Source: an uncultured Bacilli bacterium (GTDB lineage: Bacteria; Bacillota_I; Bacilli_A; RF39; UBA660). Taken from it: a DNA stretch of 39,539 nucleotides. The position numbers were made by a program, and so were the translations under genes. The stretch is from positions 1 through 39,539 of the forward strand of contig CALVWG010000036.1 in assembly GCA_944364655.1 (NCBI GenBank). Direction: 5' to 3'. The notes beneath the pieces were generated by a model. It ran no database searches. It worked only from the letters and a program-made list of their open reading frames with translations, and was not told the DNA's origin. This document shows, piece by piece, positions 3,822-39,402 of this stretch; position 1 is the stretch's first letter; every line of letters begins with the position of its first letter.

Positions 3822-4328
3822 TTATGAAATGTATTTATCAATTATTTCTTTTACGTAAAACTTATAATTTATATCATCATTATTTTCATTTTTACCTTCT
3901 AATAAACATAATGGTGGAAACATAACACACCACCAATTTTTTCCTATTCCATTTCCTAAAGTTATGACAAGGGAATTATAATTTCCTTCTGGATAAGTTA
4001 CTCCTTTGTACTCTTTTTCAGGAAAATAATTTAATCCTAAAGAAACAGTATAATTAGAAGTATAATTGTTAATAACTGCTTTGATGTTCTCTAAATTATT
4101 TTCAATTATTTTTTCAGCTTCTTGGCTATTTTTTACATTAGACAATTGGTTGGCAAGTTCCCGTTCAACTGCCTCTTTTATTTGAAATTTTAACTGTTGG
4201 TCATTTTCATTATCACTATTAGCAATTATTCTAAATCTAATTGCATCATTGGGAATTAAAATTTCTTTTTGATTAACAAAACCATATATTAAGAATAAAA
4301 CAAATAAAACAGGAATTATTTTCTTCAT
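3822..4328 (-). CDS. spoIIR: stage II sporulation protein R
   Basis: Signal peptide, then IRFRIIANSD..DQQLK and the NWWCVMFPPLC motif characteristic of SpoIIR. Confidence 0.85.
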   Translation of the reverse strand: MKKIIPVLFVLFLIYGFVNQKEILIPNDAIRFRIIANSDNENDQQLKFQIKEAVERELANQLSNVKNSQEAEKIIENNLENIKAVINNYTSNYTVSLGLNYFPEKEYKGVTYPEGNYNSLVITLGNGIGKNWWCVMFPPLCLLEGKNENNDDINYKFYVKEIIDKYIS

Positions 4329-10835: not shown

Positions 10836-10853
10836 TTTTAATTAATCATTCTT
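10828..10853. terminator. hairpin spanning the convergent stop codons of the PBP gene and the Noc-like gene
   Basis: AAGAATGATT (10828-10837) / AATCATTCTT (10844-10853) with a 6-nt loop. The flanking A/T runs are weak. Confidence 0.4.
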
Positions 10854-12053
10854 TATATTTATAGTCATTTGGTAATTTCCATTTAAATCAATTTCATCTA
10901 AAGATATTTTAAATCCTTGTTTTTCCATTTTTCTTACCATATCTCTGACTTCATTAATAGCTGTTTTTAAATCTATTCCTTTAGATTGCTCAACTATTTG
11001 TTCATAATTTGGATCTAATTTTATAACAGAATCCATTGGATCAACAATCTCATTTTCTTTTGAATCTTTTACTTCCTCAATAACATTATTAATGGAAGGT
11101 TGTTGTTCATCAAAAAGAAATGGCATTACAGTTTCATTTTCAGAATTTTTAACTGATTCATTTTCATTTAAACTAGAATCATCAAGTACTTCTATATTAT
11201 CTAATGAAGAATTCTTATTATTTTCAGGATTTGCTTCACTCATACTCATATTAGCAGCTTCATCTTCTAAGAAATTAAAAAATTTATTTGGAATATTTTT
11301 AATTTCTTTTTTTGTTTCATTTATTTGATTTGTATCTTGTTCCATTGAATTAACCTCTCTAATAGTATTTTGTTTATTAATATCAGTTGCGTTATTAATC
11401 AATTTATTCATATCAGGATTTATATTTACTAATGGCACATCCTCAGTTTTTTCACCTTTAGCTTTTTTTATTTCCATATCTAATTGCCTAACAGTCATTC
11501 TTTTAGCAATTATTTTTTTTAACCATTCTGCTTGCTCTTCTTTAGGAAGTACTAATAAACTTCTAGCATGTCTCTCGCTAATTTTTTCTTGTAATAAAGC
11601 ATCTTGAACTTCAGGAGCTAAATTTAAAAGACGTAGTTTATTGGCAATAGAACTTTGACTTACTCCCATCTTTTCAGCTAATTGTTCTTGAGTCATATAT
11701 CCTCTATCTAATAGATTTTTATAAGATTTAGCTTCTTCAATTGGTGTTAAATTTCTTCTTTGAATATTTTCAACTAAAGCTATTTCAGCACTTTTATTAT
11801 CATCTATGTTTGAAATAATTGCAGGAACTTGACGAAGTCCAGCCATAGTTGCAGCTTTAAATCTTCTTTCACCCGCGATTATTTCAAATTTGTTTCCTAA
11901 TCTTCTTAAAACCAAAGGTTGAATTATACCATGTTGTTTAATTGATTCTGATAATTCTTTTAAACCATCTTCATCAAATGCTAATCTAGGTTGAAATCTA
12001 TTAGGAATAATATCTTCTATTGCCACTTGTAATACTTTTTGTTCTGTGTTCAC
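10842..12053 (-). CDS. noc: ParB/Noc-family CTP-dependent DNA-binding protein, Noc-like, with a long low-complexity insert
   Basis: IPNRFQPR, GERRFKAA (the CTP-binding GERR box), and the HTH/recognition region GVSQSSIANKLRLLNL..ISERHARSL. The C-terminal domain TAINEVRDMVRKMEKQGFKISLDEIDLNGNYQMTINI resembles Noc as I recall it. It starts at a GTG behind AAGGGG and lies immediately downstream of rsmG. Confidence 0.8.
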   Translation of the reverse strand: MNTEQKVLQVAIEDIIPNRFQPRLAFDEDGLKELSESIKQHGIIQPLVLRRLGNKFEIIAGERRFKAATMAGLRQVPAIISNIDDNKSAEIALVENIQRRNLTPIEEAKSYKNLLDRGYMTQEQLAEKMGVSQSSIANKLRLLNLAPEVQDALLQEKISERHARSLLVLPKEEQAEWLKKIIAKRMTVRQLDMEIKKAKGEKTEDVPLVNINPDMNKLINNATDINKQNTIREVNSMEQDTNQINETKKEIKNIPNKFFNFLEDEAANMSMSEANPENNKNSSLDNIEVLDDSSLNENESVKNSENETVMPFLFDEQQPSINNVIEEVKDSKENEIVDPMDSVIKLDPNYEQIVEQSKGIDLKTAINEVRDMVRKMEKQGFKISLDEIDLNGNYQMTINIKND

Positions 12054-16213: not shown

Positions 16214-16241
16214 AAAAATTATTTCCCGGGAAATAATTTTT
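16214..16241. promoter_or_regulatory. Noc-binding-site (NBS) palindrome, embedded in a 28-bp perfect palindrome that probably also terminates jag
   Basis: AAAAATTATTTCCCGGGAAATAATTTTT. The core TATTTCCCGGGAAATA at 16220-16235 matches the published B. subtilis NBS consensus ATTTCCCGGGAAAT. Confidence 0.7.
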
Positions 16242-17920: not shown

Positions 17921-18248
17921 TGTTTCTCCTTTTCTCTACTAAATCTAAAAAACTTGATTTTAAATCCTCAAAATTTAAATCTTTAGTGCTTTCTTTCATT
18001 ATTATAATATAATCTTTATTGATGTTCAAATTTTTTTTCCATTCATCTATAATAACCCGCATTCTTCTTTTTAATTTATTTCTGTTTACTGCATTACCTA
18101 ATTTTTTTGAAACTGCTATTCCAAAGTGTGGATAATCATAATTTCCTTTCCTTATATATATAGTGAAATTTTTATTCTTAATATATTTTTCATTTTTGAT
18201 AATTTTGTTAAACTCTTCATGCGATTTAATCATTTCTATTTTTTTCAT
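17904..18248 (-). CDS. rnpA: ribonuclease P protein component
   Basis: 114 aa and basic. GIAVSKKLGNAVNRNKLKRRMR matches the RNR motif region. It lies between rpmH and yidC. Confidence 0.92.
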   Translation of the reverse strand: MKKIEMIKSHEEFNKIIKNEKYIKNKNFTIYIRKGNYDYPHFGIAVSKKLGNAVNRNKLKRRMRVIIDEWKKNLNINKDYIIIMKESTKDLNFEDLKSSFLDLVEKRRNNEKTK

Positions 18249-18266
18249 TAGTGTTCTCCCCTATTC

Positions 18267-18293
18267 AAAAAAAAAGCCACATAAAAGATGTGG
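18267..18293 (-). terminator. hairpin plus U-run between rpmH and rnpA (attenuator)
   Basis: On the minus strand: CCACAT-CTTTT-ATGTGG followed by 9 T. Plus-strand stems are at 18277-18282 and 18288-18293. Confidence 0.6.
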
Positions 18294-18295
18294 TT

Positions 18296-18418
18296 TTATT
18301 TACATAATTTTTTGCGTCCTTTTTTTCTTCTGTTTTTTAAAATATTTGTTTCTTTACGAGCAAAAAAGCCATGTTTTTTTGCTTTTTTACGTTTATTTGG
18401 TTGATAAGTTCCTACCAT
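18296..18418 (-). CDS. rpmH: 50S ribosomal protein L34 (not in the ORF track; hand-translated)
   Basis: The minus strand reads MVGTYQPNKRKKAKKHGFFARKETNILKNRRKKGRKKLCK*, preceded by GGAGGAAAG. This is the typical L34 sequence and position. Confidence 0.9.
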   Translation of the reverse strand: MVGTYQPNKRKKAKKHGFFARKETNILKNRRKKGRKKLCK

Positions 18419-18449
18419 AGTTCTTTCCTCCTTTTTCTAAAGCTCTCTT

Positions 18450-18479
18450 ATTATAATATTAAAATTGTAAAAAAGTCAA
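18450..18479 (-). promoter_or_regulatory. candidate rpmH promoter
   Basis: On the minus strand: TTGACT (18479-18474), an 18-nt spacer, then TATAAT (18455-18450). Confidence 0.55.
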
Positions 18480-18503
18480 TAATTACTGGCTAATTAAGTG
18501 CAT

Positions 18504-18702
18504 TGTTGATAATTAATAACATTTCTAATAGCTTTATTTTTAATATTTATCGTAAAAAAAATTATTTATCAACTTATACACAGAATGTTAATAACTTTTA
18601 TTAACTTTATAAACTTGTTAACAAGTTAAAATTTATTTCAATGTGGATAATGTGGATAACTGCTTTTAAATATTATTAATAAAGAAATAATTTTGTTGAT
18701 AA
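18504..18702. other. oriC, upstream DnaA-box cluster (rpmH-dnaA spacer)
   Basis: Two abutting perfect boxes TGTGGATAA are at 18642-18650 and 18651-18659. One-mismatch boxes are TGTTGATAA (18504-18512 and 18694-18702) and TTATACACA (18574-18582). Confidence 0.85.
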
Positions 18703-18796
18703 GTTGTTAATAGTATGTTAGTATACATTTTAGACTTTTAAATTTATTGAAAAAAGTGTAGAATAATGTTAGTTATTGTTAAAGCGGGGTGGTTTC

Positions 18797-20200
18797 ATGG
18801 GCGAAAAAGATCTTTGGCAATCGGTTTTAGATGAAATATATCCAGAAGTTAATACAGCTTCTTTTCATGCTTGGTTTAATGACTTAAAACTAATAAAAAT
18901 AGAGAATAATAAAGTGTATATTCAAGTGCCTATGGAAATACATAAGCGAATTTTAACGCAAAACTATTATACTTTAATAGATGATGCTTTTTATAAAGTT
19001 ACTAATCACAATTATGAATTCGAATTTTTATTAAAAGAGGAAATTGATTCAAAAATTAAAGTTTATAATTTAGAACAAAATGTGGATAATGTTAATAATG
19101 TGGATAACTCTTTAAATTCGACTAAACCAAAAGTGGAAAAAGAAGATGAAAAATGGGAATCAAATTTAATTCCAGAGTTAAATTTTGATAATTATGTAGT
19201 GGGGGATTCTAATAGGCTGGCTAAGACGGCTGGAATGATTGTTGCTGAACAGCCTGGTAAAGTGCATAATCCTTTATTTATATATGGAAAAAGTGGTTTA
19301 GGTAAAACTCATTTAATGCACGCGATAGGAAATTACATTGTTAATAACTCACATAAAAAGGTTTTGTATACAACTAGTGAAATGTTTAAAGATGATTATA
19401 TTAACATTATTAATACAGAAAATAAGGGAAATAATATTCAGGTAGCGGCTGACTTTAAGAAAAAATATCGAGAAGTTGATGTTTTAATTATTGACGATAT
19501 TCAATATTTAGTCGGAGCCGAGAAAACACAGCAAGAATTCTTTCATACGTTTAATGCTTTACATCAAGCAAATAAGCAAATAATTATTAGTTCTGATCGC
19601 AGTCCTGATGATTTAAAATTACTTGAAGAAAGACTTAGAAGTCGATTTATGTGGGGATTACCTGTTGATATTTATCCACCTGATTTTGAACTTCGATGTA
19701 AAATAATTAAATCCAAAATAAAAAATACGTCTATTGCTAATAAAATTGACGAAAATGTTATTGAATATATTGCTAATAATTGTCAAAATGATGTTAGATT
19801 TCTAGAAGGGGCAATTAATAGGCTTATGGCCTATACTGCGATGATTGTACCTGATGTAATTGATTTAAACTTTGCTATAGAAGCTTTAGCTGATTTTGTA
19901 AATCATAATATTTATAGTAAAAGTAGTATTGAGAGTATTCAAAAAGCTGTAGCAGATTATTACAAGATTACTATTGATGATTTAAAAGGAAAAAAGAGAA
20001 GTGCTAATATAGCTTATCCTAGACAAATAGCTATGTATTTATCAAGAACATTAACAGAAGAAAATTTAAATAGAATAGGGTTAGAATTTGGAGGAAGAGA
20101 TCATTCAACAGTTATTCACGCATGTGATAAAATAACAAGTGATTTAAAAAACAATCCAGCTTTAGAACAACAGCTTAAGGAAATTCAAAATAAAATGTAA
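18797..20200 (+). CDS. dnaA: chromosomal replication initiator protein DnaA
   Basis: Walker A GKSGLGKTHL, box VII/sensor motifs, and the C-terminal DNA-binding domain (..IAYPRQIAMYLSR..GGRDHSTVIHA). I prefer the ATG at 18797, behind GGGGTGG, over the TTG at 18776. Confidence 0.96.
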   Translation: MGEKDLWQSVLDEIYPEVNTASFHAWFNDLKLIKIENNKVYIQVPMEIHKRILTQNYYTLIDDAFYKVTNHNYEFEFLLKEEIDSKIKVYNLEQNVDNVNNVDNSLNSTKPKVEKEDEKWESNLIPELNFDNYVVGDSNRLAKTAGMIVAEQPGKVHNPLFIYGKSGLGKTHLMHAIGNYIVNNSHKKVLYTTSEMFKDDYINIINTENKGNNIQVAADFKKKYREVDVLIIDDIQYLVGAEKTQQEFFHTFNALHQANKQIIISSDRSPDDLKLLEERLRSRFMWGLPVDIYPPDFELRCKIIKSKIKNTSIANKIDENVIEYIANNCQNDVRFLEGAINRLMAYTAMIVPDVIDLNFAIEALADFVNHNIYSKSSIESIQKAVADYYKITIDDLKGKKRSANIAYPRQIAMYLSRTLTEENLNRIGLEFGGRDHSTVIHACDKITSDLKNNPALEQQLKEIQNKM

Positions 20201-20340
20201 TGTTGATAATTATTTTAATTGTGCATACTTATTAACTTAAAAATTGGTCTTTAAAGCCTTTAGTATAAGCATTTTTAAAGAGTTATCCACATTATCCACC
20301 GTATTAATAATATAAATATATAAATTATAATAAGAAAGAG
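20201..20340. other. oriC, downstream DnaA-box cluster plus AT-rich unwinding region (dnaA-dnaN spacer)
   Basis: TGTTGATAA at 20201-20209, then abutting TTATCCACA (20283-20291) and TTATCCACC (20292-20300). An almost pure A/T stretch follows directly at 20301-20334. Confidence 0.8.
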
Positions 20341-21492: not shown

Positions 21493-21567
21493 GTTTGTTC
21501 GACATATTTTTTCTATTTTATATGATAGCCTAAATGCAATTTTCATATGAAATGGGGGAAATTTGTT

Positions 21568-22029
21568 ATGGAAACACAATATGAAATTAATGAAGAAACG
21601 ATGGCTATTTTAACTATTGATAATAATAGTTCAGAAGTATTTGAAGTTAATAACCATTATATTATATCTAAGGCTTCAAATAAGATAATGGAAGATAGTT
21701 GTCGATATTTTGGAAGTTCTTTAGATGGACGACGAAAAGGTACTGAATATATGATAGGCATTTCTTATAAACCTCCTATTATAGTAGAAGAAAGTAAAGA
21801 ATTAATTTTTTTTCCTACTTCTAATTCAAGAGAGAATAGTAATTGGATAGGTTTAAAATATATAAAATCATATTATAGAGAAGGAGAAAATTTGTTTTTA
21901 AAATTTCAAAATGATGTTAAAGTACAGCTTAATATATCATATGGTATTTTAGATAATCAGGTTTTAAGAGCTACTAGGTTAGAAAGTGCTTTAAGAGGAA
22001 GGAAAATAGCAAAAAAAACTATAAAATAG
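21568..22029 (+). CDS. comK: ComK-family competence transcription factor
   Basis: EDSCRYFGSSLDGRRKGT, YKPPIIVEESKELIFFPTSNS and ISYGILDNQVLRATRL align with B. subtilis ComK blocks (DRSCRFFGSSYAGRKAGT, HKPPIMVDPSNQIFLFPTLSS, ISYNSFENQVYRTAWL). The ATG at 21568 sits 7 nt after GGGGGAA. Confidence 0.85.
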   Translation: METQYEINEETMAILTIDNNSSEVFEVNNHYIISKASNKIMEDSCRYFGSSLDGRRKGTEYMIGISYKPPIIVEESKELIFFPTSNSRENSNWIGLKYIKSYYREGENLFLKFQNDVKVQLNISYGILDNQVLRATRLESALRGRKIAKKTIK

Positions 22030-25122: not shown

Positions 25123-25132
25123 GAGGTAAATG

Positions 25133-27565
25133 ATGGATAAGTTAGAAAAAAATAATATTGTAACAGAAGTTAGTAAATCATTTGTTGATTATTCCGTTAG
25201 TGTAATTACATCTCGGGCATTACCTGATTTAAGAGATGGTTTAAAACCTGTTCATAGAAGAATTTTATATTCTATGTATCAATCAGGATATACATCAGAC
25301 AAGCAACATAAAAAATGTGCTCGTATTGTCGGTGATGTTATGGGAAAATTTCACCCTCATGGTGATTCATCAATTTATGATGCTTTAGTAAGAATGGCTC
25401 AAGATTTTAGTTATCGTTATCCTTTAATTGACGGTCATGGAAATTTTGGTAACATGGATGGTGATGGTGCCGCTGCAATGCGTTATACTGAGTCACGTTT
25501 AGCTAAAATTTCAAATGAATTATTAAGAGATATTAATAAAAATACAGTAGATATGACACCAAATTTCGATGAATTGGAGGTTGAACCAGTAGTTCTTCCT
25601 AGTCGTTTTCCAAATATTTTAGTTAATGGAACTATGGGTATTGCTGTTGGTATGGCAACTAATATACCACCACATAATTTAGGAGAAGTTATAGATGGTT
25701 GTGTTGCTTATATAGATAATCCAGAAATTGATACTGTTGGTTTAATGCAATACATTAAAGGTCCAGATTTTCCAACAGGCGCAACAATTTTAGGTAATAG
25801 TGGTATTAAAAAGGCGTATGAAACAGGACGAGGAACTATTACTATTAGAAGTAAGGCTTCTATTGAAGAAAAGAATGGAAGGTATCAAATTGTATTTAAT
25901 GAAGTTCCATATGGTGTTAATACTTTGGAATTAAAAAATAAAGTTGCTGAATTAGTTCATAATAAAATAATTGAAGGAATTTCAGATTATCATTCTGATT
26001 TAAAAGATGGTATAAAAATTACAATTACTTTAAAAAGAGATGCTAATCCACAAGTTGTATTGAATAATCTTTATAAACATACATCATTTCAAACAACTTT
26101 TGGAATTATATTGTTAATGATAGATCAAGGTGTTCCAAAAACACTTGGTTTAAAGGATATTATTAGTAAATATATTGATTTTCAAAAGGAAGTTATAATT
26201 CGAAGAACAAAATTTGATTTGGAAAAAGCTGAGGCTAGAGTTCACATTTTACAAGGTTTAAAGATAGCTTTGGATCATATAGATGAAGTTATTAAAATTA
26301 TTAAGGAAAGTAAAACTGATGTTCAAGCTAAGGAAACTTTAATTAATCGTTTTGGATTAACTGAAATTCAATGTGACGCTATTTTAGAAATGAAGTTAAG
26401 ACGTTTAACAGGATTAGAAAAGGAAAAAATCGAATCTGAATTAAATGAATTATTGAAAAAAATAGAAGAATTAAAATCAATATTAGCTAGTGATGAGAAA
26501 GTTTTAAGTATTATTCGTACTGAATTATTGGAAATTAAAGATAAATATGCAGATGAACGTCGAACAGATATTGATATGACTGCTATTGAATATATTGAGG
26601 ATGAATCTTTAATTCCAGAAGAAGATGTTATGGTAGCATTAACTAATAAGGGTTATATAAAAAGAACAACGACAGACACCTTTAAAGCTCAAAATAGAGG
26701 CGGTGTAGGTGTAAAAGGAATGGCTACTAATGATGAGGATTTTGTTGAACACTTAATTAACTTATCAACTCATGATTATGTCTTATTTTTCACAAATAAA
26801 GGCAAAGTTTATCGTTTAAAAGGATATGAAATACCAGAATTTAGTAGACAATCTAAAGGTATTCCAGTTATTAACCTTTTACAAATAGATAAAGATGAAT
26901 CAATTAATTCTATTATACGTATAGATAAAGATAACAAATTTAAGTATTTACTTTTTGCAACTAAGAAGGGTATTATTAAGAAAACATCAATTGAGGAATT
27001 TGATAATATTAGAACAAATGGTAAAATTTGTATTACATTGCGTGAAAATGACGAATTGATCGGAGTTAGAAAAACTACTGGTAATGATATGATAATTCTT
27101 GGTTCTAGCGCTGGTAGAATGGTTAAGTTTAATGAAAATGAAATTCGTGTTATGGGTAGAACCGCAAGTGGTGTAAAGGGCATTAATTTAAATGATAACA
27201 ATTGTATTGGTGTTGAAATTGCTAATGATGATGATAAAATTTTGATTGTAACTGAAAAGGGTTATGGTAAGCAAACAAACGTTCGAGAATATCGCCAAAC
27301 CAGCCGTGGAAGTAAAGGAGTGAAAGCCTTAAATATAACTGATAAAAACGGAAGTATTGCTGCATTTAAATTGGTTGGTAATGACAATGATGTTGTTATT
27401 ATTACTAATACTGGTATGATTATTAGATTACCTTTAGATCAAGTTTCAACTCTAGGCAGAGTTACACAAGGTGTTAGATTAATACATTTGAAAGATGGTC
27501 AATTTGTTGCAACCATAAGTATTGTTGATCATGAAACGAAGGAAGATAATATTAGTGAAGAATAA
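25133..27565 (+). CDS. gyrA: DNA gyrase subunit A
   Basis: [12 protein letters not shown], the QRDR-like [17 protein letters not shown], the catalytic-Tyr region AAMRYTE and a C-terminal beta-pinwheel. The start is the ATG at 25130 or 25133; AGGAGG spacing favours 25133. Confidence 0.97.
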
Positions 27566-27582
27566 TATTATCTTTTTTTATA

Positions 27583-27598
27583 TGTTCCACGTGGAACA
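27583..27598. promoter_or_regulatory. parS site 1
   Basis: TGTTCCACGTGGAACA. The palindrome extends to 24 bp (27579-27602). Confidence 0.8.
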
Positions 27599-27621
27599 TA
27601 TAAAAAATGTTTATAACTTAA

Positions 27622-27637
27622 TGTTTCACGTGAAACA
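27622..27637. promoter_or_regulatory. parS site 2
   Basis: TGTTTCACGTGAAACA, a perfect 16-bp palindrome. Confidence 0.8.
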
Positions 27638-27749
27638 TATAAAATACGATTATATTAATATATAATAAATTAAATTATTTTTAAAATCATTTTATAAATC
27701 ATCAATTTTTACTAATCAAAGCATTTTTAAAAATTAAATGTTTATAACA

Positions 27750-27765
27750 ATGTTCCACGTGGAAC
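27750..27765. promoter_or_regulatory. parS site 3
   Basis: TGTTCCACGTGGAACA. Confidence 0.8.
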
Positions 27766-27896
27766 ATAAATAATCAAATTAGAAAATAATTTAATATAAT
27801 TTTAATATTAAATACTTATTTATTTTAAATTCTATATATTTTTTAAAATTATTTTTATTTTAGTTTATAAATAATAAATAATAAGTGGATAACCAA

Positions 27897-27912
27897 TGTT
27901 CCACGTGGAACA
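27897..27912. promoter_or_regulatory. parS site 4
   Basis: TGTTCCACGTGGAACA. The palindrome extends to 28 bp (27891-27918), and AGTGGATAAC lies immediately upstream. Confidence 0.8.
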
Positions 27913-28015
27913 TTGGTTTTTATATGTATAAAATTATATTGAATATTAAAGTAATAATTAAAAAAAAAATTATTTATAATATAATTTATAATAAATTTTT
28001 AAAAGTTAACAACTA

Positions 28016-28031
28016 TGTTTCACGTGAAACG
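28016..28031. promoter_or_regulatory. parS site 5 (one mismatch)
   Basis: TGTTTCACGTGAAACG. Confidence 0.7.
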
Positions 28032-28186
28032 TTAAGTTATTTAAAAAATATAATATTTTAGTTAATAAAATAAATAAGTATGTAATTTTCAAAAAAATAA
28101 AAAATTTTAATTGTAGTTTAATATTAAATTTTGAATTTTATTTAATATTTATTTAATATTTGGCTTTTTTATTAGTGGATAACTAA

Positions 28187-28202
28187 TGTTCCACGTGGAA
28201 CA
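28187..28202. promoter_or_regulatory. parS site 6
   Basis: TGTTCCACGTGGAACA, with AGTGGATAAC immediately upstream. Confidence 0.8.
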
Positions 28203-28318
28203 TATGTGATTAATAAATATAATTTATGAAAAGTGTACAATTAATTTTAAATTATAGTTAAAAAAGTTTAATATTGGATATTTTAAACATACATTTTTAT
28301 TATATGTTAATAAGTCTA

Positions 28319-28334
28319 TGTTTCACGTGAAACA
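28319..28334. promoter_or_regulatory. parS site 7
   Basis: TGTTTCACGTGAAACA. Confidence 0.8.
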
Positions 28335-28399
28335 TGTTGAAATAATTGTATTTTTTATTAAAAATTATAAATTGTTTTGATTATAACTAAAATTTTTAA

Positions 28400-28415
28400 T
28401 GTTCCACGTGGAACA
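28400..28415. promoter_or_regulatory. parS site 8
   Basis: TGTTCCACGTGGAACA. Confidence 0.8.
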
Positions 28416-28428
28416 TATGATTTTTTGG

Positions 28429-28457
28429 TTGCTTTTTCTTTAATATTTTGATATAAG
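28429..28457 (+). promoter_or_regulatory. candidate ffs promoter with an extended -10
   Basis: TTGCTT (28429-28434), a 17-nt spacer, then TG-a-TATAAG (28449-28457). This places the transcription start at about 28464. Confidence 0.55.
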
Positions 28458-28463
28458 TATTTT

Positions 28464-28540
28464 GTGCAACAAATAAATTGTAATCTGGTCAGGATCGGAA
28501 GATAGCAGCCACATCAATCCCTGTTTGTGTGCACTTTTTT
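28464..28540 (+). ncRNA. ffs: signal recognition particle RNA, short (4.5S-like) form
   Basis: CUGGUCAGGAUCGGAAGAUAGCAGCC matches the conserved domain IV (GGUCAGGUCCGGAAGGAAGCAGCC, GGAA tetraloop). The 5' GTGCAACAAA pairs with the 3' TTTGTGTGCAC and a T6 run follows. It sits in the usual ffs/tadA/dnaX neighbourhood. Confidence 0.8.
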
Positions 28541-28555
28541 ATTGGAGGAATTTAA

Positions 28556-30678: not shown

Positions 30679-30975
30679 ATGAATATGCAAAGTATAATGG
30701 CTCAAGCACAAAGAATGCAAAGAGATATTCAGAAAAAAAAGGATGAAATTAATGCAAAATTATTTCCCGGGAAATATGAATTTGTCGAAGTTACTTTAAA
30801 CGGTAAAAAGGAAATGGTACGTTGTAAAATAAATAAAGAAAGTTTAGATGCATCTGATATGGAGTTATTAGAAGACTTTATTGTATTAGCAACAAAAAAT
30901 GCAATTCAACAAATTGATCAAGAAATTCAAGCTAAAATGGGTCAATATGCTGGGATGTTAGATGGTTTGATGTAA
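30679..30975 (+). CDS. ybaB: YbaB/EbfC nucleoid-associated protein
   Basis: 98 aa beginning MQSIMAQAQRMQRDIQKKKDE, in the conserved dnaX-ybaB-recR context. Confidence 0.9.
   Translation: MNMQSIMAQAQRMQRDIQKKKDEINAKLFPGKYEFVEVTLNGKKEMVRCKINKESLDASDMELLEDFIVLATKNAIQQIDQEIQAKMGQYAGMLDGLM
30761..30776. promoter_or_regulatory. Noc-binding-site palindrome inside ybaB
   Basis: TATTTCCCGGGAAATA. The shared upstream flank AAAAT (30756-30760) matches the other two copies. Confidence 0.65.
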
Positions 30976-34112: not shown

Positions 34113-34803
34113 TTGGTTATTTGATTATCCAAATTTACAAGTTTATCAATATGCTGAAGGATTTAAATTTTCTTTAGATTCAATTTTATTGGCGGAGTTT
34201 GCTAAAATTAAAAAAAGCGATGAAAAAATAATTGATTTATGTACAGGTAATGCTGTTATTCCAATTATTTTAAATTTTAAATTTCATAAAAAAATAATTG
34301 GTGTTGAATTACAAAAAGAAATATTTGATTTAGCAAAAGATTCTGTTTCTATTAACCATATGGAAAAGGAAATAAATTTGTTAAATGAGAATGTTTTAAA
34401 TTTAGAAAATTATTTCCCGGGAAATAATTTTGATGTTGTTTTATCAAATCCGCCATATTTTAAGTATCATCATGAAAATTTTATAAACAAAAATTTAACA
34501 AAAAGCCTTGCTAGACATGAAATAACAATAAATTTGGAATCATTAATAAAAATTGCAAGTTATTTACTAAAAAGTAAAGGACGATTTTATCTAGTACATA
34601 TTCCTAGTAGAATAGATGAAATAATTGTTTTTGCGAAAAAATATAATTTTGGAATAAAAGAAATTCAATTTGTTCATTCTAAAATTGAAGAATCGCCAAT
34701 AATAGTTTTGATAACTTTAATTAAAGATGGAAAATTTGGAACAAAAGTTAAACCACCAATAAGTATTTTAAATTTAAATACTTATCAAGGTTTATTTGAA
34801 TAG
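34096..34803 (+). CDS. TrmN6/YabB-like SAM-dependent methyltransferase (tRNA m6A37-type)
   Basis: GFKFSLDSILLA, the SAM-binding IIDLCTGNAVI and NPPYF. It overlaps ricT by 17 nt. Confidence 0.8.
   Translation: MKKQINWLFDYPNLQVYQYAEGFKFSLDSILLAEFAKIKKSDEKIIDLCTGNAVIPIILNFKFHKKIIGVELQKEIFDLAKDSVSINHMEKEINLLNENVLNLENYFPGNNFDVVLSNPPYFKYHHENFINKNLTKSLARHEITINLESLIKIASYLLKSKGRFYLVHIPSRIDEIIVFAKKYNFGIKEIQFVHSKIEESPIIVLITLIKDGKFGTKVKPPISILNLNTYQGLFE
34411..34426. promoter_or_regulatory. Noc-binding-site palindrome inside the methyltransferase gene
   Basis: TATTTCCCGGGAAATA, within the 26-bp perfect palindrome AAAATTATTTCCCGGGAAATAATTTT (34406-34431). Confidence 0.65.
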
Positions 34804-38634: not shown

Positions 38635-39147
38635 TTGAAAGATACTGGTGTTATTAGAAAAATTGATGAGTTAGGAAGAATAGTTATTCCAAAAGAAATA
38701 AGAAGAAGTTTAGGAATTAGAGATGGTGAAAATTTAGAAATTTTTGTTAATAATAATGGAATTACTTTGCAAAAACATTCGAGACTAATTAATTATCAAG
38801 AACTAGCTAATCAATTGGCAAATTTAGCTTATGAAATGATGGATTATAAAATATTAATTTTTGATCGTGATGAAGTAATGGCTGCGTTTAAAAACGAATA
38901 TAAACATATATTAATAAATCAAAAATTACAAAAACTTTTAGAAAATAGAGAAAATTATGAATCTTTAAATAAAGAAATTATTTTAGATGAAATAGAGGCA
39001 TGTTATTATCTTATTTTACCAATTATTATTTCTACTGATGTTGTTGGTTTAATAGTGATGATTAATGATAAATTGTTTGTAAATGAACAAAGAAAATTTT
39101 TAAAATTTTTAAATAAGCTTTTAGTTAATAAAATTGATATATTATAA
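38635..39147 (+). CDS. spoVT: stage V sporulation protein T (AbrB-family SpoVT)
   Basis: The N-terminal swapped-hairpin domain KDTGVIRKIDELGRIVIPKEIRRSLGIRDGENLEIF plus a ~120-aa C-terminal GAF-like part. It has a TTG start and the conserved position after mfd. Confidence 0.85.
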   Translation: MKDTGVIRKIDELGRIVIPKEIRRSLGIRDGENLEIFVNNNGITLQKHSRLINYQELANQLANLAYEMMDYKILIFDRDEVMAAFKNEYKHILINQKLQKLLENRENYESLNKEIILDEIEACYYLILPIIISTDVVGLIVMINDKLFVNEQRKFLKFLNKLLVNKIDIL

Positions 39148-39192: not shown

Positions 39193-39202
39193 AAGTTTAA
39201 TC

Positions 39203-39402
39203 AATGATGAAAGAAAGAGTATATAATTAGTTTTTTTAAGAGAGTTTACGTTGGTGAAAGTAAATAAAAGCTTATTATAGAAGATGGCTCTGGAGTTAAA
39301 ACGTTTAAATCGCGTTAAGAAAAAAGAGCATGGAAACATGAATTAAGGTGGTACCGCGGATCTAACAGTTATTCGTCCTTTAGGATTGATAACTGTTTTT
39401 TA
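39203..39402 (+). promoter_or_regulatory. T-box riboswitch leader, AUG (Met) specifier
   Basis: Stem I start AATGATGAAAGAAAGAGTA, AGAGAG and GGTGAAAG distal elements, and a specifier loop GAAGAUGG with AUG at 39284-39286. The T-box sequence AATTAAGGTGGTACCGCG is at 39341-39358 and a terminator follows. Confidence 0.88.
39364..39402 (+). terminator. T-box terminator hairpin
   Basis: AACAGTTAT (39364-39372) / ATAACTGTT (39389-39397) followed by a T-run. Its 5' arm can alternatively pair in the antiterminator. Confidence 0.8.

What the first reader, a model, noticed from the sequence alone, without database searches (positions are those of the whole stretch)
27579..28416. Eight parS palindromes packed into the ~1 kb non-coding gyrA-ffs spacer (centromere-like array)
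The 16-bp cores, read directly from the sequence, fall into three forms. TGTTCCACGTGGAACA is at 27583-27598, 27750-27765, 27897-27912, 28187-28202 and 28400-28415. TGTTTCACGTGAAACA is at 27622-27637 and 28319-28334. TGTTTCACGTGAAACG, with one mismatch, is at 28016-28031. All eight are flanked by A...T, giving an 18-bp unit ATGTT[C/T]CACGTG[G/A]AACAT, and two palindromes extend further (24 bp at 27579-27602, 28 bp at 27891-27918). Both variants fit the Firmicute parS consensus TGTTNCACGTGAAACA bound by ParB/Spo0J. Spacings are irregular (39, 128, 147, 119, 171, 132 and 81 bp). The DNA between sites is almost pure A/T and has no ORF of 60 aa or more on either strand. In well-studied chromosomes, parS sites are dispersed singly over the origin-proximal region and are mostly inside genes. 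Eight sites in under 850 bp of dedicated non-coding DNA, about 7-8 kb from the dnaA-dnaN unwinding region, look more like a plasmid-type centromere. Such an array would be a very strong ParB-CTP clamp and SMC loading point. It also occupies the position downstream of gyrA where B. subtilis carries an rRNA operon.
Basis: partly seen in the sequence, partly recalled or inferred. Interest (0 to 1): 0.8.

Follow-up and report, generated by a model that had tools for sequence, protein, structure and literature searches.

The report
Conserved parS centromere array beside gyrA
Eight copies of the bacterial centromere sequence parS are packed into 0.83 kb of non-coding DNA 7 kb from the replication origin of an uncultured gut bacterium; relatives conserve the array, but the protein that should bind it was not found near the origin.

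Summary
Eight 16-bp parS palindromes lie between the gyrA stop (27565) and the SRP RNA gene (28452). No other match exists in the 39.5-kb window, even at 3 mismatches.

The array is conserved. In 51 related uncultured Bacilli genomes (around Candidatus Ventrenecus; DnaN identity 100-46%), the gyrA-tadA spacers hold 280 parS in 43 kb. The 990 kb outside them hold 17. Among close relatives only the parS cores stay invariant. Some relatives carry regular tandem arrays of 10-14 sites.

I read it as the main origin-proximal ParB loading platform, with no linked partition operon.
- The only ParB-family gene near the origin is Noc-type (Q-K-N-R, not R-T-A-G) and lacks Noc's membrane helix. No soj/spo0J lies nearby. 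The cognate ParB is unidentified.
- Many parS in relatives carry a one-sided DnaA box 2-6 bp away, degenerate in this window. Noc-binding sites interleave with or bracket the arrays in several clades.
- Dense parS arrays are widespread in metagenomes, usually beside parAB, so this is a new variant of a known kind.

The parts
27583..27598 (.). parS 1, TGTTCCACGTGGAACA; centre of a 34-bp perfect palindrome (27574-27607), 18 bp after the gyrA stop
27622..27637 (.). parS 2, TGTTTCACGTGAAACA; preceded by the DnaA-box-like TGTTTATAA (27608-27616), gap 5 bp
   Evidence: (box and site invariant in 6 genomes)
27751..27766 (.). parS 3, TGTTCCACGTGGAACA; preceded by TGTTTATAA (27739-27747), gap 3 bp
27897..27912 (.). 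parS 4, TGTTCCACGTGGAACA; centre of a 28-bp palindrome (27891-27918)
27884..27892 (-). DnaA-box-like TTATCCACT (1 mismatch to TTATCCACA), 4 bp from parS 4
28016..28031 (.). parS 5, TGTTTCACGTGAAACG (1 mismatch)
28187..28202 (.). parS 6, TGTTCCACGTGGAACA
28174..28182 (-). DnaA-box-like TTATCCACT, 4 bp from parS 6
28319..28334 (.). parS 7, TGTTTCACGTGAAACA; preceded by TGTTAATAA (28305-28313), gap 5 bp. Four close relatives (L003, L005, L006, L025) have a Noc-binding site just upstream of the equivalent position; the window does not
28400..28415 (.). parS 8, TGTTCCACGTGGAACA; 37 bp upstream of the SRP RNA gene
25130..27565 (+). gyrA, left border of the spacer
   Evidence: NF004043, 1161 bits
28452..28550 (+). 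ffs (small SRP RNA), right border of the array
   Evidence: RF00169, 55.6 bits
10842..12053 (-). The only ParB-family gene in the window. It encodes a 403-aa Noc-type CTPase-fold protein with Q-K-N-R specificity residues. It has no N-terminal membrane helix and a long N/E/D-rich linker. It is the probable binder of the NBS sites, not of parS
16221..16234 (.). Perfect Noc-binding site ATTTCCCGGGAAAT in the mnmE-jag spacer; the position is conserved in relatives
30762..30775 (.). Perfect Noc-binding site inside ybaB; the position is conserved in relatives
18127..20300 (.). oriC: DnaA-box clusters flanking dnaA. The dnaA-dnaN spacer has two tandem boxes followed by AT-rich DNA. Gene orientation and GC skew flip here

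Best explanation
The gyrA-ffs spacer is the main origin-proximal centromere of this chromosome. It is a dedicated AT-rich gap with no ORF and no recognised RNA gene. It holds eight canonical parS sites that load a parS-specific ParB (R173/G201-type) encoded somewhere outside the 40-kb origin region.

Inferred from established ParB biology: each site nucleates CTP-bound ParB clamps that slide onto the flanking DNA. Eight sites in 0.83 kb would act as one high-flux loading point, building a single partition complex about 7-8 kb from the dnaA-dnaN unwinding region. That complex would recruit Smc-ScpAB.

The ancestral noc-soj-spo0J cluster has been reduced here to a single Noc-type gene. The array therefore probably serves origin organisation and SMC loading rather than ParA-driven transport.

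Shown: selection keeps the sites while the DNA between them turns over. Relatives remodel the array by tandem and segmental duplication, giving up to 14 sites.

A secondary layer is shown in relatives and is only vestigial here. A DnaA box is fused to one side of many parS sites, and Noc-binding sites interleave with or bracket the arrays. This suggests the locus also couples the centromere to the initiator DnaA and to the Noc-type protein.
For: Sequence identity and exclusivity:
- Eight matches to TGTTNCACGTGNAACA against 0 expected, and none elsewhere in the window even at 3 mismatches.

Position:
- The array lies 7.2 kb from the dnaA-dnaN spacer, where DnaA boxes, the strand switch and the GC-skew switch place oriC.

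Conservation:
- All 49 of the 51 related loci that hold a complete gyrA-tadA spacer with any parS have 2-14 sites there.
- The other two (L071, L074) have their two sites just downstream of tadA.
- In total there are 280 sites in 43 kb of spacer against 17 in 990 kb outside.
- No parS occurs in the 20 kb left of dnaA in relatives.

Footprint:
- In six genomes with 93-100% DnaN identity, the invariant columns are almost only the parS cores and an adjacent ATAAC box.
- The rest of the spacer is 58% identical with many indels.

Array dynamics:
- Relatives have 14 x 40 bp, 11 x 36 bp and at least 10 x 63 bp tandem arrays and higher-order repeats.

Precedent:
- Metagenome contigs with dense parS arrays mostly carry parA-parB next to them, so such arrays are ParB centromeres elsewhere.
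- Tight clustering avoids Smc collisions (PMC8357415).

Secondary layer:
- A DnaA box lies 2-6 bp from parS on the gyrA side in 45 of 142 unique sites (78 of 142 with 1 mismatch), against 0 of 142 on the mirror side.
- The window has 5 of 8 with 1 mismatch.
- In a distant clade the box variant used at oriC (TTTTCCACA) is the same one found in the spacer.
- Noc-binding sites are about 20-fold denser in spacers and often sit 25-40 bp from a parS.
Against: - No parS-type ParB gene was found. The window's only ParB-family protein is Noc-type at the four specificity residues. Orthologues in 40 related loci where the motif could be read are Q/K/N-S-T-Q/R; one (L043) has T at 179. None has R173 or G201.
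- Relatives on 90-113-kb contigs show no soj/spo0J within 10 kb of that gene.
- Genome-wide exclusivity of the array is untested beyond about 40 kb.
- Binding, spreading and SMC recruitment are inferred from other organisms.
- The DnaA boxes in this particular window are degenerate: none is perfect and two are TTATCCACT.
Confidence: 0.7

Rival explanations
1. The lineage has no canonical ParB. The parS array, together with the Noc-binding sites, is read by the single MTS-less Noc-type protein, either through dual specificity or together with an unknown partner. The centromere system would then be Noc-derived and independent of ParA.
For: - It is the only ParB-family gene within about 20 kb of oriC in the window and within 10 kb in relatives. 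The ancestral soj-spo0J neighbours are gone.
- The protein lacks Noc's membrane-targeting helix and so resembles a soluble ParB-like clamp (PMC8429893).
- NBS and parS are tightly interleaved in several clades.
Against: - In the systematic and one-hybrid screens, parS-specific variants always had R at 173. Q173/R201 variants preferred NBS-type bases (PMC7383237).
- 280 sites keep the exact canonical parS bases (G at position 1 and A at position 6 of each half-site) instead of drifting to NBS. This implies a binder tuned to parS.
- Perfect NBS sites coexist as a separate class.
- Orphan parB genes relocated away from noc/dnaA occur in other Firmicutes (PMC8136486).
Confidence: 0.12
2. The spacer is primarily a DnaA-box cluster, a datA/DBC-like element that controls replication initiation. 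The parS sites would be an accessory that recruits ParB to modulate DnaA.
For: - Relatives have 5-11 consensus DnaA boxes in the spacer, each fused to a parS.
- In B. subtilis, oriC-proximal DnaA-box clusters repress initiation and act synergistically with Spo0J (PMC3245932).
Against: - The parS sites are universal in the lineage, whereas the boxes are present only in some clades. They are absent from L028, L055, L058, L062-64, L078 and L081.
- In this window no box is perfect.
- The alignment footprints are centred on parS.
Confidence: 0.08
3. The palindromes act as DNA or RNA structures (bidirectional terminators or insulators, or cruciforms), or as operators of an unrelated regulator. The match to parS would be coincidental.
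For: Three sites score as hairpin-plus-T-run terminators, against 0.2 expected in shuffles.
Against: - All 16 core positions, not just base-pairing potential, are conserved across genomes down to 46% DnaN identity. A purely structural element would show compensatory changes.
- The sequence is the pan-bacterial parS.
- Eight terminators in a gap with no ORF and no recognised RNA gene have no rationale.
Confidence: 0.03
4. The spacer is part of the replication origin, either a second oriC module or the unwinding region.
For: It is an AT-rich 1-kb non-coding stretch with DnaA-box-like motifs, and relatives have real box clusters there.
Against: - Gene orientation and GC skew switch at 18-18.7 kb, not at 27.6 kb. 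The skew stays positive from 19 to 39 kb.
- Perfect DnaA boxes cluster around dnaA. The dnaA-dnaN spacer has the classic arrangement of two tandem boxes followed by AT-rich DNA.
Confidence: 0.02

Closest known systems
Chromosomal parS / Spo0J (ParB) sites of Bacillus subtilis and other Firmicutes
   Same: The same 16-bp consensus TGTTNCACGTGAAACA, an origin-proximal position, and the expected role as a ParB-CTP clamp loading site and Smc-ScpAB recruitment site.
   Different: B. subtilis has eight oriC-proximal sites, and Bacilli scatter their parS widely. Here eight sit in 0.83 kb of dedicated non-coding DNA. No soj-spo0J operon is nearby, and the cognate ParB is unidentified.
parS clusters beside parAB in other bacteria (Caulobacter, Corynebacterium, Myxococcus with 22 sites; uncultured lineages)
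   Same: Multiple canonical parS concentrated near the origin. Metagenome contigs show comparable or larger intergenic arrays: L088 has 15, L186 has 17, L108 has 14 and L121 has 10.
   Different: Those arrays usually lie in the rsmG-parA spacer or next to dnaA, beside the partition operon. This one lies between gyrA and ffs and is unlinked to any par gene. Model-organism clusters span 5-40 kb, not under 1 kb.
Plasmid iteron centromeres such as F sopC (12 tandem 43-bp repeats; stated from my own knowledge)
   Same: Many ParB-family binding palindromes within 1 kb or less of non-coding DNA. Relatives L028 (14 x 40 bp), L081 (11 x 36 bp) and L078 (at least 10 x 63 bp) are true tandem-repeat centromeres.
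   Different: The context is chromosomal and the sequence is the chromosomal-type parS. Spacing in this window is irregular (39-171 bp). There is no adjacent parAB.
oriC-proximal DnaA-box clusters of B. subtilis (Okumura 2012) and DnaA binding at the Caulobacter centromere (Mera 2014; stated from my own knowledge)
   Same: DnaA boxes outside oriC but close to it, with a functional link between DnaA titration or binding and ParB.
   Different: Here each box is physically fused, 2-6 bp away and on one side only, to a parS. The feature is clade-specific and degenerate in this window.
Noc-NBS nucleoid occlusion system
   Same: Perfect NBS sites (ATTTCCCGGGAAAT) and a ParB paralogue with Noc-type residues Q173, K179 and R201.
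   Different: The protein lacks the N-terminal membrane-targeting helix that nucleoid occlusion requires. In relatives, NBS sites are interleaved with parS inside the centromere array. There is none inside this window's array.

Membership tests
Chromosomal parS centromere site (ParB/Spo0J-bound) | 16-bp palindrome matching TGTTNCACGTGAAACA | tested here: met
   Seven perfect matches and one with 1 mismatch to TGTTNCACGTGNAACA; 0 expected
Chromosomal parS centromere site (ParB/Spo0J-bound) | Origin-proximal location | tested here: met
   7.2-8.2 kb from the dnaA-dnaN spacer; skew and strand switch at about 18.5 kb
Chromosomal parS centromere site (ParB/Spo0J-bound) | Sites maintained by selection in related genomes | tested here: met
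   280 sites in 51 spacers against 17 outside; invariant islands in alignment A1
Chromosomal parS centromere site (ParB/Spo0J-bound) | A parS-specific ParB (R173...G201-type recognition residues) encoded by the organism | tested here: inconclusive
   Not in the 39.5-kb window or within 10 kb of the noc-like gene in relatives. The only homologue is Q-K-N-R. Whole genomes could not be searched
Chromosomal parS centromere site (ParB/Spo0J-bound) | ParB binding, CTP-dependent spreading and SMC recruitment at the sites | not testable with these tools
   Needs EMSA/BLI, ChIP-seq and Hi-C
Plasmid-type tandem-iteron centromere (e.g. F sopC) | Head-to-tail repeats of fixed period, each carrying one binding site | tested here: not met
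   Window spacings are 39-171 bp with no common unit beyond the site and box. The feature is met in relatives L028, L081 and L078
Plasmid-type tandem-iteron centromere (e.g. F sopC) | Adjacent to its own parA-parB operon on a mobile replicon | tested here: not met
   Flanked by gyrA and ffs-tadA-dnaX in a conserved chromosomal context
DnaA-box cluster (DBC / datA-like) | Several consensus DnaA boxes (TTATNCACA) within a few hundred bp outside oriC | tested here: not met
   The window spacer has 0 perfect boxes and 2 x TTATCCACT, plus 3 further one-mismatch boxes at the same offset. The feature is met in relatives L015 (11), L012 (8), L017 (7) and L013 (5)
Noc-binding-site cluster | ATTTCCCGGGAAAT sites in the element | tested here: not met
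   None in 27566-28451. Three perfect sites lie elsewhere in the window. NBS sites are present inside the spacer in 19 of 51 related loci
oriC | Coincides with the strand/skew switch, has clustered consensus DnaA boxes, and is adjacent to dnaA | tested here: not met
   The switch and the perfect boxes are at 18.1-20.3 kb

The most novel reading that the evidence does not exclude
This gut Bacilli lineage may have lost not only soj-spo0J from the origin cluster but canonical ParB altogether. The conserved composite of parS, Noc-binding sites and DnaA boxes downstream of gyrA would then be an 'origin organising centre'. It would be read by a Noc-derived CTPase without a membrane helix, together with DnaA. 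That would be a ParA-independent, Noc-derived centromere that physically couples the replication initiator to the segregation and SMC-loading site.
Probability: 0.12. Interest if true: 0.8.

Novelty: new variant of a known kind. Interest (0 to 1): 0.5.

Why it matters
- Bacilli are the textbook case of scattered parS sites. Here a deep, uncultured, probably spore-forming gut branch of Bacilli concentrates its origin-region parS in one sub-kilobase, fast-remodelling array. The array is unlinked to any partition operon. The ancestral noc-soj-spo0J cluster is reduced to a Noc-type gene without its membrane anchor.
- This is a natural experiment on three questions: how many loading sites a chromosome needs and how closely spaced; the idea that clustering avoids SMC collisions; and what a Noc-type clamp does without its membrane anchor.
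- In relatives, DnaA boxes are fused to parS on one side and Noc-binding sites interleave with parS. This gives concrete short DNA substrates for testing direct crosstalk between DnaA, ParB and Noc in vitro.
- The metagenome scan shows that very dense parS arrays are common in uncultured bacteria. I found no description of such sub-kilobase arrays in the literature I could search.

Tried and rejected
1. Search for the cognate ParB.
- tblastn of the Noc-like protein against all 80 related loci found one ParB-family gene per locus.
- All 41 whose recognition motif could be read lack R173 and G201.
- Context look-ups of two orthologues on 90-113-kb contigs showed no second PF02195 gene within 10 kb.
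- A homology search returned only orthologues of the Noc-like protein.
- The window's SpoVT was looked up to extend rightwards, but the contigs end there.

2. The spacer as oriC. Rejected on skew, strand switch and box distribution.

3. Generic dispersed repeat or MITE. Rejected: there are no copies elsewhere in the window or in about 1 Mb of related origin regions outside the spacer, apart from 17 sites that are mostly just downstream of tadA.

4. An RNA gene in the spacer. No Rfam family reaches threshold except ffs at its edge.

5. Promoter scan. Promoter-like hits are not enriched (12 found against 16.5 expected). This is uninformative in 17% G+C DNA.

6. Taxonomy and literature. NCBI places Ca. 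Ventrenecus only in Bacteria incertae sedis. The naming paper's held text does not contain the name. Livny 2007 is not held.
Full report
**Observation**

The eight palindromes are real. TGTTNCACGTGNAACA with up to 1 mismatch matches at 27583, 27622, 27751, 27897, 28016, 28187, 28319 and 28400. None of 100 dinucleotide-preserving shuffles gave a match. Relaxing to 3 mismatches adds nothing anywhere in the 39.5-kb window.

Two details need correction:
- The third site starts at 27751, so the spacings are 39, 129, 146, 119, 171, 132 and 81.
- The first palindrome is 34 bp (27574-27607), not 24 bp.

The array fills the gap between the gyrA stop at 27565 and the small SRP RNA gene at 28452-28550. 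The gap has no ORF of 60 aa or more and is 17% G+C.

**Setting**

The window is a Firmicute origin region. Its gene order is:
- on the minus strand: ...argS, PBP1A (plus strand), a ParB-family gene, rsmG, mnmG, mnmE, jag, yidC, rnpA;
- on the plus strand: dnaA, dnaN, a ComK-family gene, recF, gyrB, gyrA, [array], ffs, tadA, dnaX, ybaB, recR ... mfd, spoVT.

Gene orientation and GC skew flip at about 18.5 kb. Perfect DnaA boxes cluster on both sides of dnaA. The dnaA-dnaN spacer has two tandem boxes followed by AT-rich DNA. oriC is therefore at dnaA, and the array lies 7.2-8.2 kb to its right.

DnaN is 94% identical to that of uncultured 'Bacilli' MAGs from chicken and human gut, and 91% to Candidatus Ventrenecus.

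**Conservation**

One scan of species-representative genomes with DnaN returned 80 related loci with 94-46% identity. Fifty of these loci, plus the window itself, hold the whole gyrA-tadA spacer. In 49 of the 51 the spacer carries 2-14 parS. The other two have their two sites just beyond tadA. In total there are 280 sites in 43 kb of spacer against 17 in 990 kb outside. The 20 kb to the left of dnaA in relatives has none.

I aligned the window's spacer with five genomes that share 93-94% DnaN identity. The invariant columns are almost only the parS cores and an ATAAC motif beside them. The rest is 58% identical and full of indels. This is a clear footprint of selection on the sites themselves.

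Relatives also show how the array evolves:
- L028 has 14 sites at a 40-bp period.
- L081 has 11 sites at 36 bp.
- L078 has at least 10 sites at 63 bp, with an assembly gap inside.
- L012 and L015 have higher-order duplications.

**What should bind it**

The only ParB-family gene in the window is 10842-12053 on the minus strand, next to rsmG. It has the ParB N-terminal (CTP-binding) and HTH domains. Its best matches are Noc structures. It scores 280 bits on the NCBI Noc model, below the cutoff of 315.

In the ungapped alignments, the four residues that set parS versus NBS specificity read Q-K-N-R. ParB has R173 T179 A184 G201 and Noc has Q-K-K-R (PMC7383237). Thermus Spo0J in the same output reads R-A-Q-G.

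I extracted the orthologues from 49 related loci; in 40 the recognition motif could be read. All have Q at 173 and R at 201. Position 179 is K in 39 and T in one, and 184 is N, S, T or Q. All begin directly at the ParB-N domain. In the window this is a GTG start with an AAGGGG ribosome-binding site. They therefore lack the 10-residue amphipathic helix that B. subtilis Noc needs for membrane binding and nucleoid occlusion (PMC8429893). They also lack any ParA-interacting N-terminal peptide.

The window contains three perfect Noc-binding sites, ATTTCCCGGGAAAT, at 16221, 30762 and 34412. This protein therefore has its own sites.

No soj or spo0J follows it. A convergent PBP1A gene does instead, and the same order holds on 90- and 113-kb contigs of relatives. 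The ancestral Firmicute cluster noc-parA-parB (PMC8136486) has thus been reduced to one Noc-type gene.

In the mutational screens, parS-specific variants always had R173. The 280 sites keep exactly the parS-defining bases. I therefore infer a separate, canonical ParB encoded elsewhere, as happens in Streptococcaceae. I could not find it, and the collection scans were exhausted. This is the main gap in the argument.

*DnaA boxes.* In the clade closest to the window (DnaN at least 80%), a DnaA box lies 2-6 bp from parS on the gyrA side. It reads TGTGNATAA or TGTTGATAA, the reverse complements of TTATNCACA and TTATCAACA.
- 45 of 142 unique sites have a perfect box, and 78 of 142 have one with a single mismatch.
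- The mirror side of the palindrome has none.
- L015 has 11 of 11 and L017 has 7 of 7.
- In the window the boxes are degenerate. Five of eight sites have a one-mismatch box at that offset, including two TTATCCACT at 27884 and 28174.
- A distant clade (L046-L048, L061) has the box in the other orientation. There the unusual variant TTTTCCACA occurs essentially only around dnaA and in this spacer. This argues that these are genuine DnaA boxes.
- Other clades have none.

*Noc-binding sites.* These are about 20-fold denser in the spacers than outside them.
- They often sit 25-40 bp from a parS.
- They alternate strictly with parS in L048.
- They bracket the array in L015, L017, L047, L051 and L061.
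- Four close relatives (L003, L005, L006, L025) have one just upstream of the seventh site; the window has lost it.

**How unusual is it?**

Most bacteria cluster parS within 5-40 kb (PMC8357415).

- Most of these triplets lie between rsmG and parA, beside parAB.
- Several are large arrays: 15 sites upstream of dnaA in L088, 17 in L186, 14 in L108, and 8 at 22-23-bp spacing in L167.
- Several of the low-GC hits have the same gyrA-tadA context as this window.

Dense non-coding parS arrays are thus a widespread form of the chromosomal centromere, though I found no description of them in the literature I could search. The following features are specific here:
- the position between gyrA and ffs;
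- the lack of any linked par operon;
- the occurrence within Bacilli;
- the Noc-type protein without a membrane helix;
- the fused DnaA boxes and the interleaved NBS sites in relatives.

**Mechanism**

*Shown:*
- canonical parS sequence;
- exclusivity to this spacer within the sequence examined;
- proximity to the origin;
- purifying selection on the sites;
- turnover of the array by duplication.

*Inferred from established ParB biology:*
- A parS-specific ParB loads as CTP clamps at each site and slides outward.
- Eight sites in 0.83 kb behave as a single high-flux loading point.
- That point builds one partition complex and recruits Smc-ScpAB while avoiding collisions between SMC complexes loaded at distant sites.
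- With no ParA gene in the origin cluster, the role is more likely origin organisation than ParA-driven transport.

*Speculative:*
- The fused DnaA boxes let DnaA and ParB compete or cooperate at the centromere. This could be titration like the B. subtilis DnaA-box clusters, which act synergistically with Spo0J (PMC3245932).
- The Noc-type clamps may delimit or reinforce the complex.

**Rivals**

The probabilities I assign to each rival are in the Rival explanations section.
- The Noc-type protein itself reads parS.
- The element is mainly a DnaA-titration locus.
- The palindromes act as structural elements such as terminators. Three sites score as terminator-like, but full sequence conservation argues against a purely structural role.
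- The spacer is part of oriC. The skew and box distribution argue against this.

**Verdict**

The feature is real, selected and conserved across the lineage. It is best filed as a new variant of the chromosomal parS centromere. It overstates how exceptional the array is, and it rests on a ParB that has not been found.

Noticed in passing
window 10842-12053 (-): The only ParB-family gene near the origin is a 403-aa Noc-type protein (Q173 K179 N184 R201). It starts directly at the ParB-N domain, so it lacks Noc's membrane-targeting helix. About 140 residues of N/E/D-rich linker precede the C-terminal domain. NCBI's pipeline names orthologues 'ParB/RepB/Spo0J family partition protein'. soj and spo0J are absent downstream; a convergent PBP1A gene follows.
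   Followed up: yes
window 16221-16234, 30762-30775, 34412-34425: Three perfect Noc-binding sites (ATTTCCCGGGAAAT) occur in a 25% G+C window. The mnmE-jag and ybaB positions recur in many related loci. Density near the origin is roughly 1 per 13 kb.
   Followed up: partly
L015, L017, L012, L013, L041, L046, L048, L061 (gyrA-tadA spacers): In relatives many parS carry a DnaA box 2-6 bp away, on one side only. In one distant clade the orientation is reversed, and the box variant TTTTCCACA is shared between oriC and this spacer.
   Followed up: yes
L048 17585-18600; L046 9462-10455; L079 17415-18340; L015 11588-13425: Noc-binding sites alternate with parS (nPnPnP...) or bracket the parS array, typically 25-40 bp from a parS.
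   Followed up: partly
L028 17423-17960; L081 17379-17755; L078 17426-18075: These are true tandem-repeat parS arrays: 14 x 40 bp, 11 x 36 bp and at least 10 x 63 bp. L078 has a run of N inside the array, so the array is probably collapsed or longer in reality.
   Followed up: partly
L088 1044-2027; L186 2508-3963; L108 1306-2172; L167 1997-2230: Unrelated metagenome contigs (35-56% G+C) carry still larger canonical parS arrays. L088 has 15 sites upstream of dnaA. L186 has 17 and L108 has 14, both with an RbfA-like gene nearby. L167 has 8 sites at 22-23-bp spacing. The organisms and the cognate proteins were not examined.
   Followed up: partly
window 21547-22029 (+): A ComK-family protein (PF06338, E = 9.5e-36) is encoded between dnaN and recF. 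The same arrangement is seen in relatives L202, L203 and L205.
   Followed up: partly
window 19081-19107, 20918, 22337, 32471: Perfect DnaA boxes (TTATCCACA) lie inside coding sequence: two 18 bp apart within dnaA itself, and single ones in dnaN, recF and at the start of the holB-like gene.
   Followed up: no
window 27543-27579: An AT-rich hairpin (AAGATAATATT / AATATTATCTT) overlaps the gyrA stop codon and is followed by a T-run that leads straight into parS 1. It is a probable weak gyrA terminator. Relatives have clearer hairpin-plus-T-run terminators immediately before their first parS. The consensus scan did not list it because it has too few G-C pairs.
   Followed up: partly
window 39198-39383 (+): A T-box leader (RF00230, 102.5 bits) lies at the right end of the window. 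Contigs of relatives that carry the same SpoVT end just after spoVT.
   Followed up: no
window 3822-4328, 38635-39147; L203 19210-20172: Sporulation genes (spoIIR, spoVT, a BofA-family gene, and spoIID in relatives) are present in a lineage that public records often label 'uncultured Tenericutes'. It is probably a spore-former.
   Followed up: no
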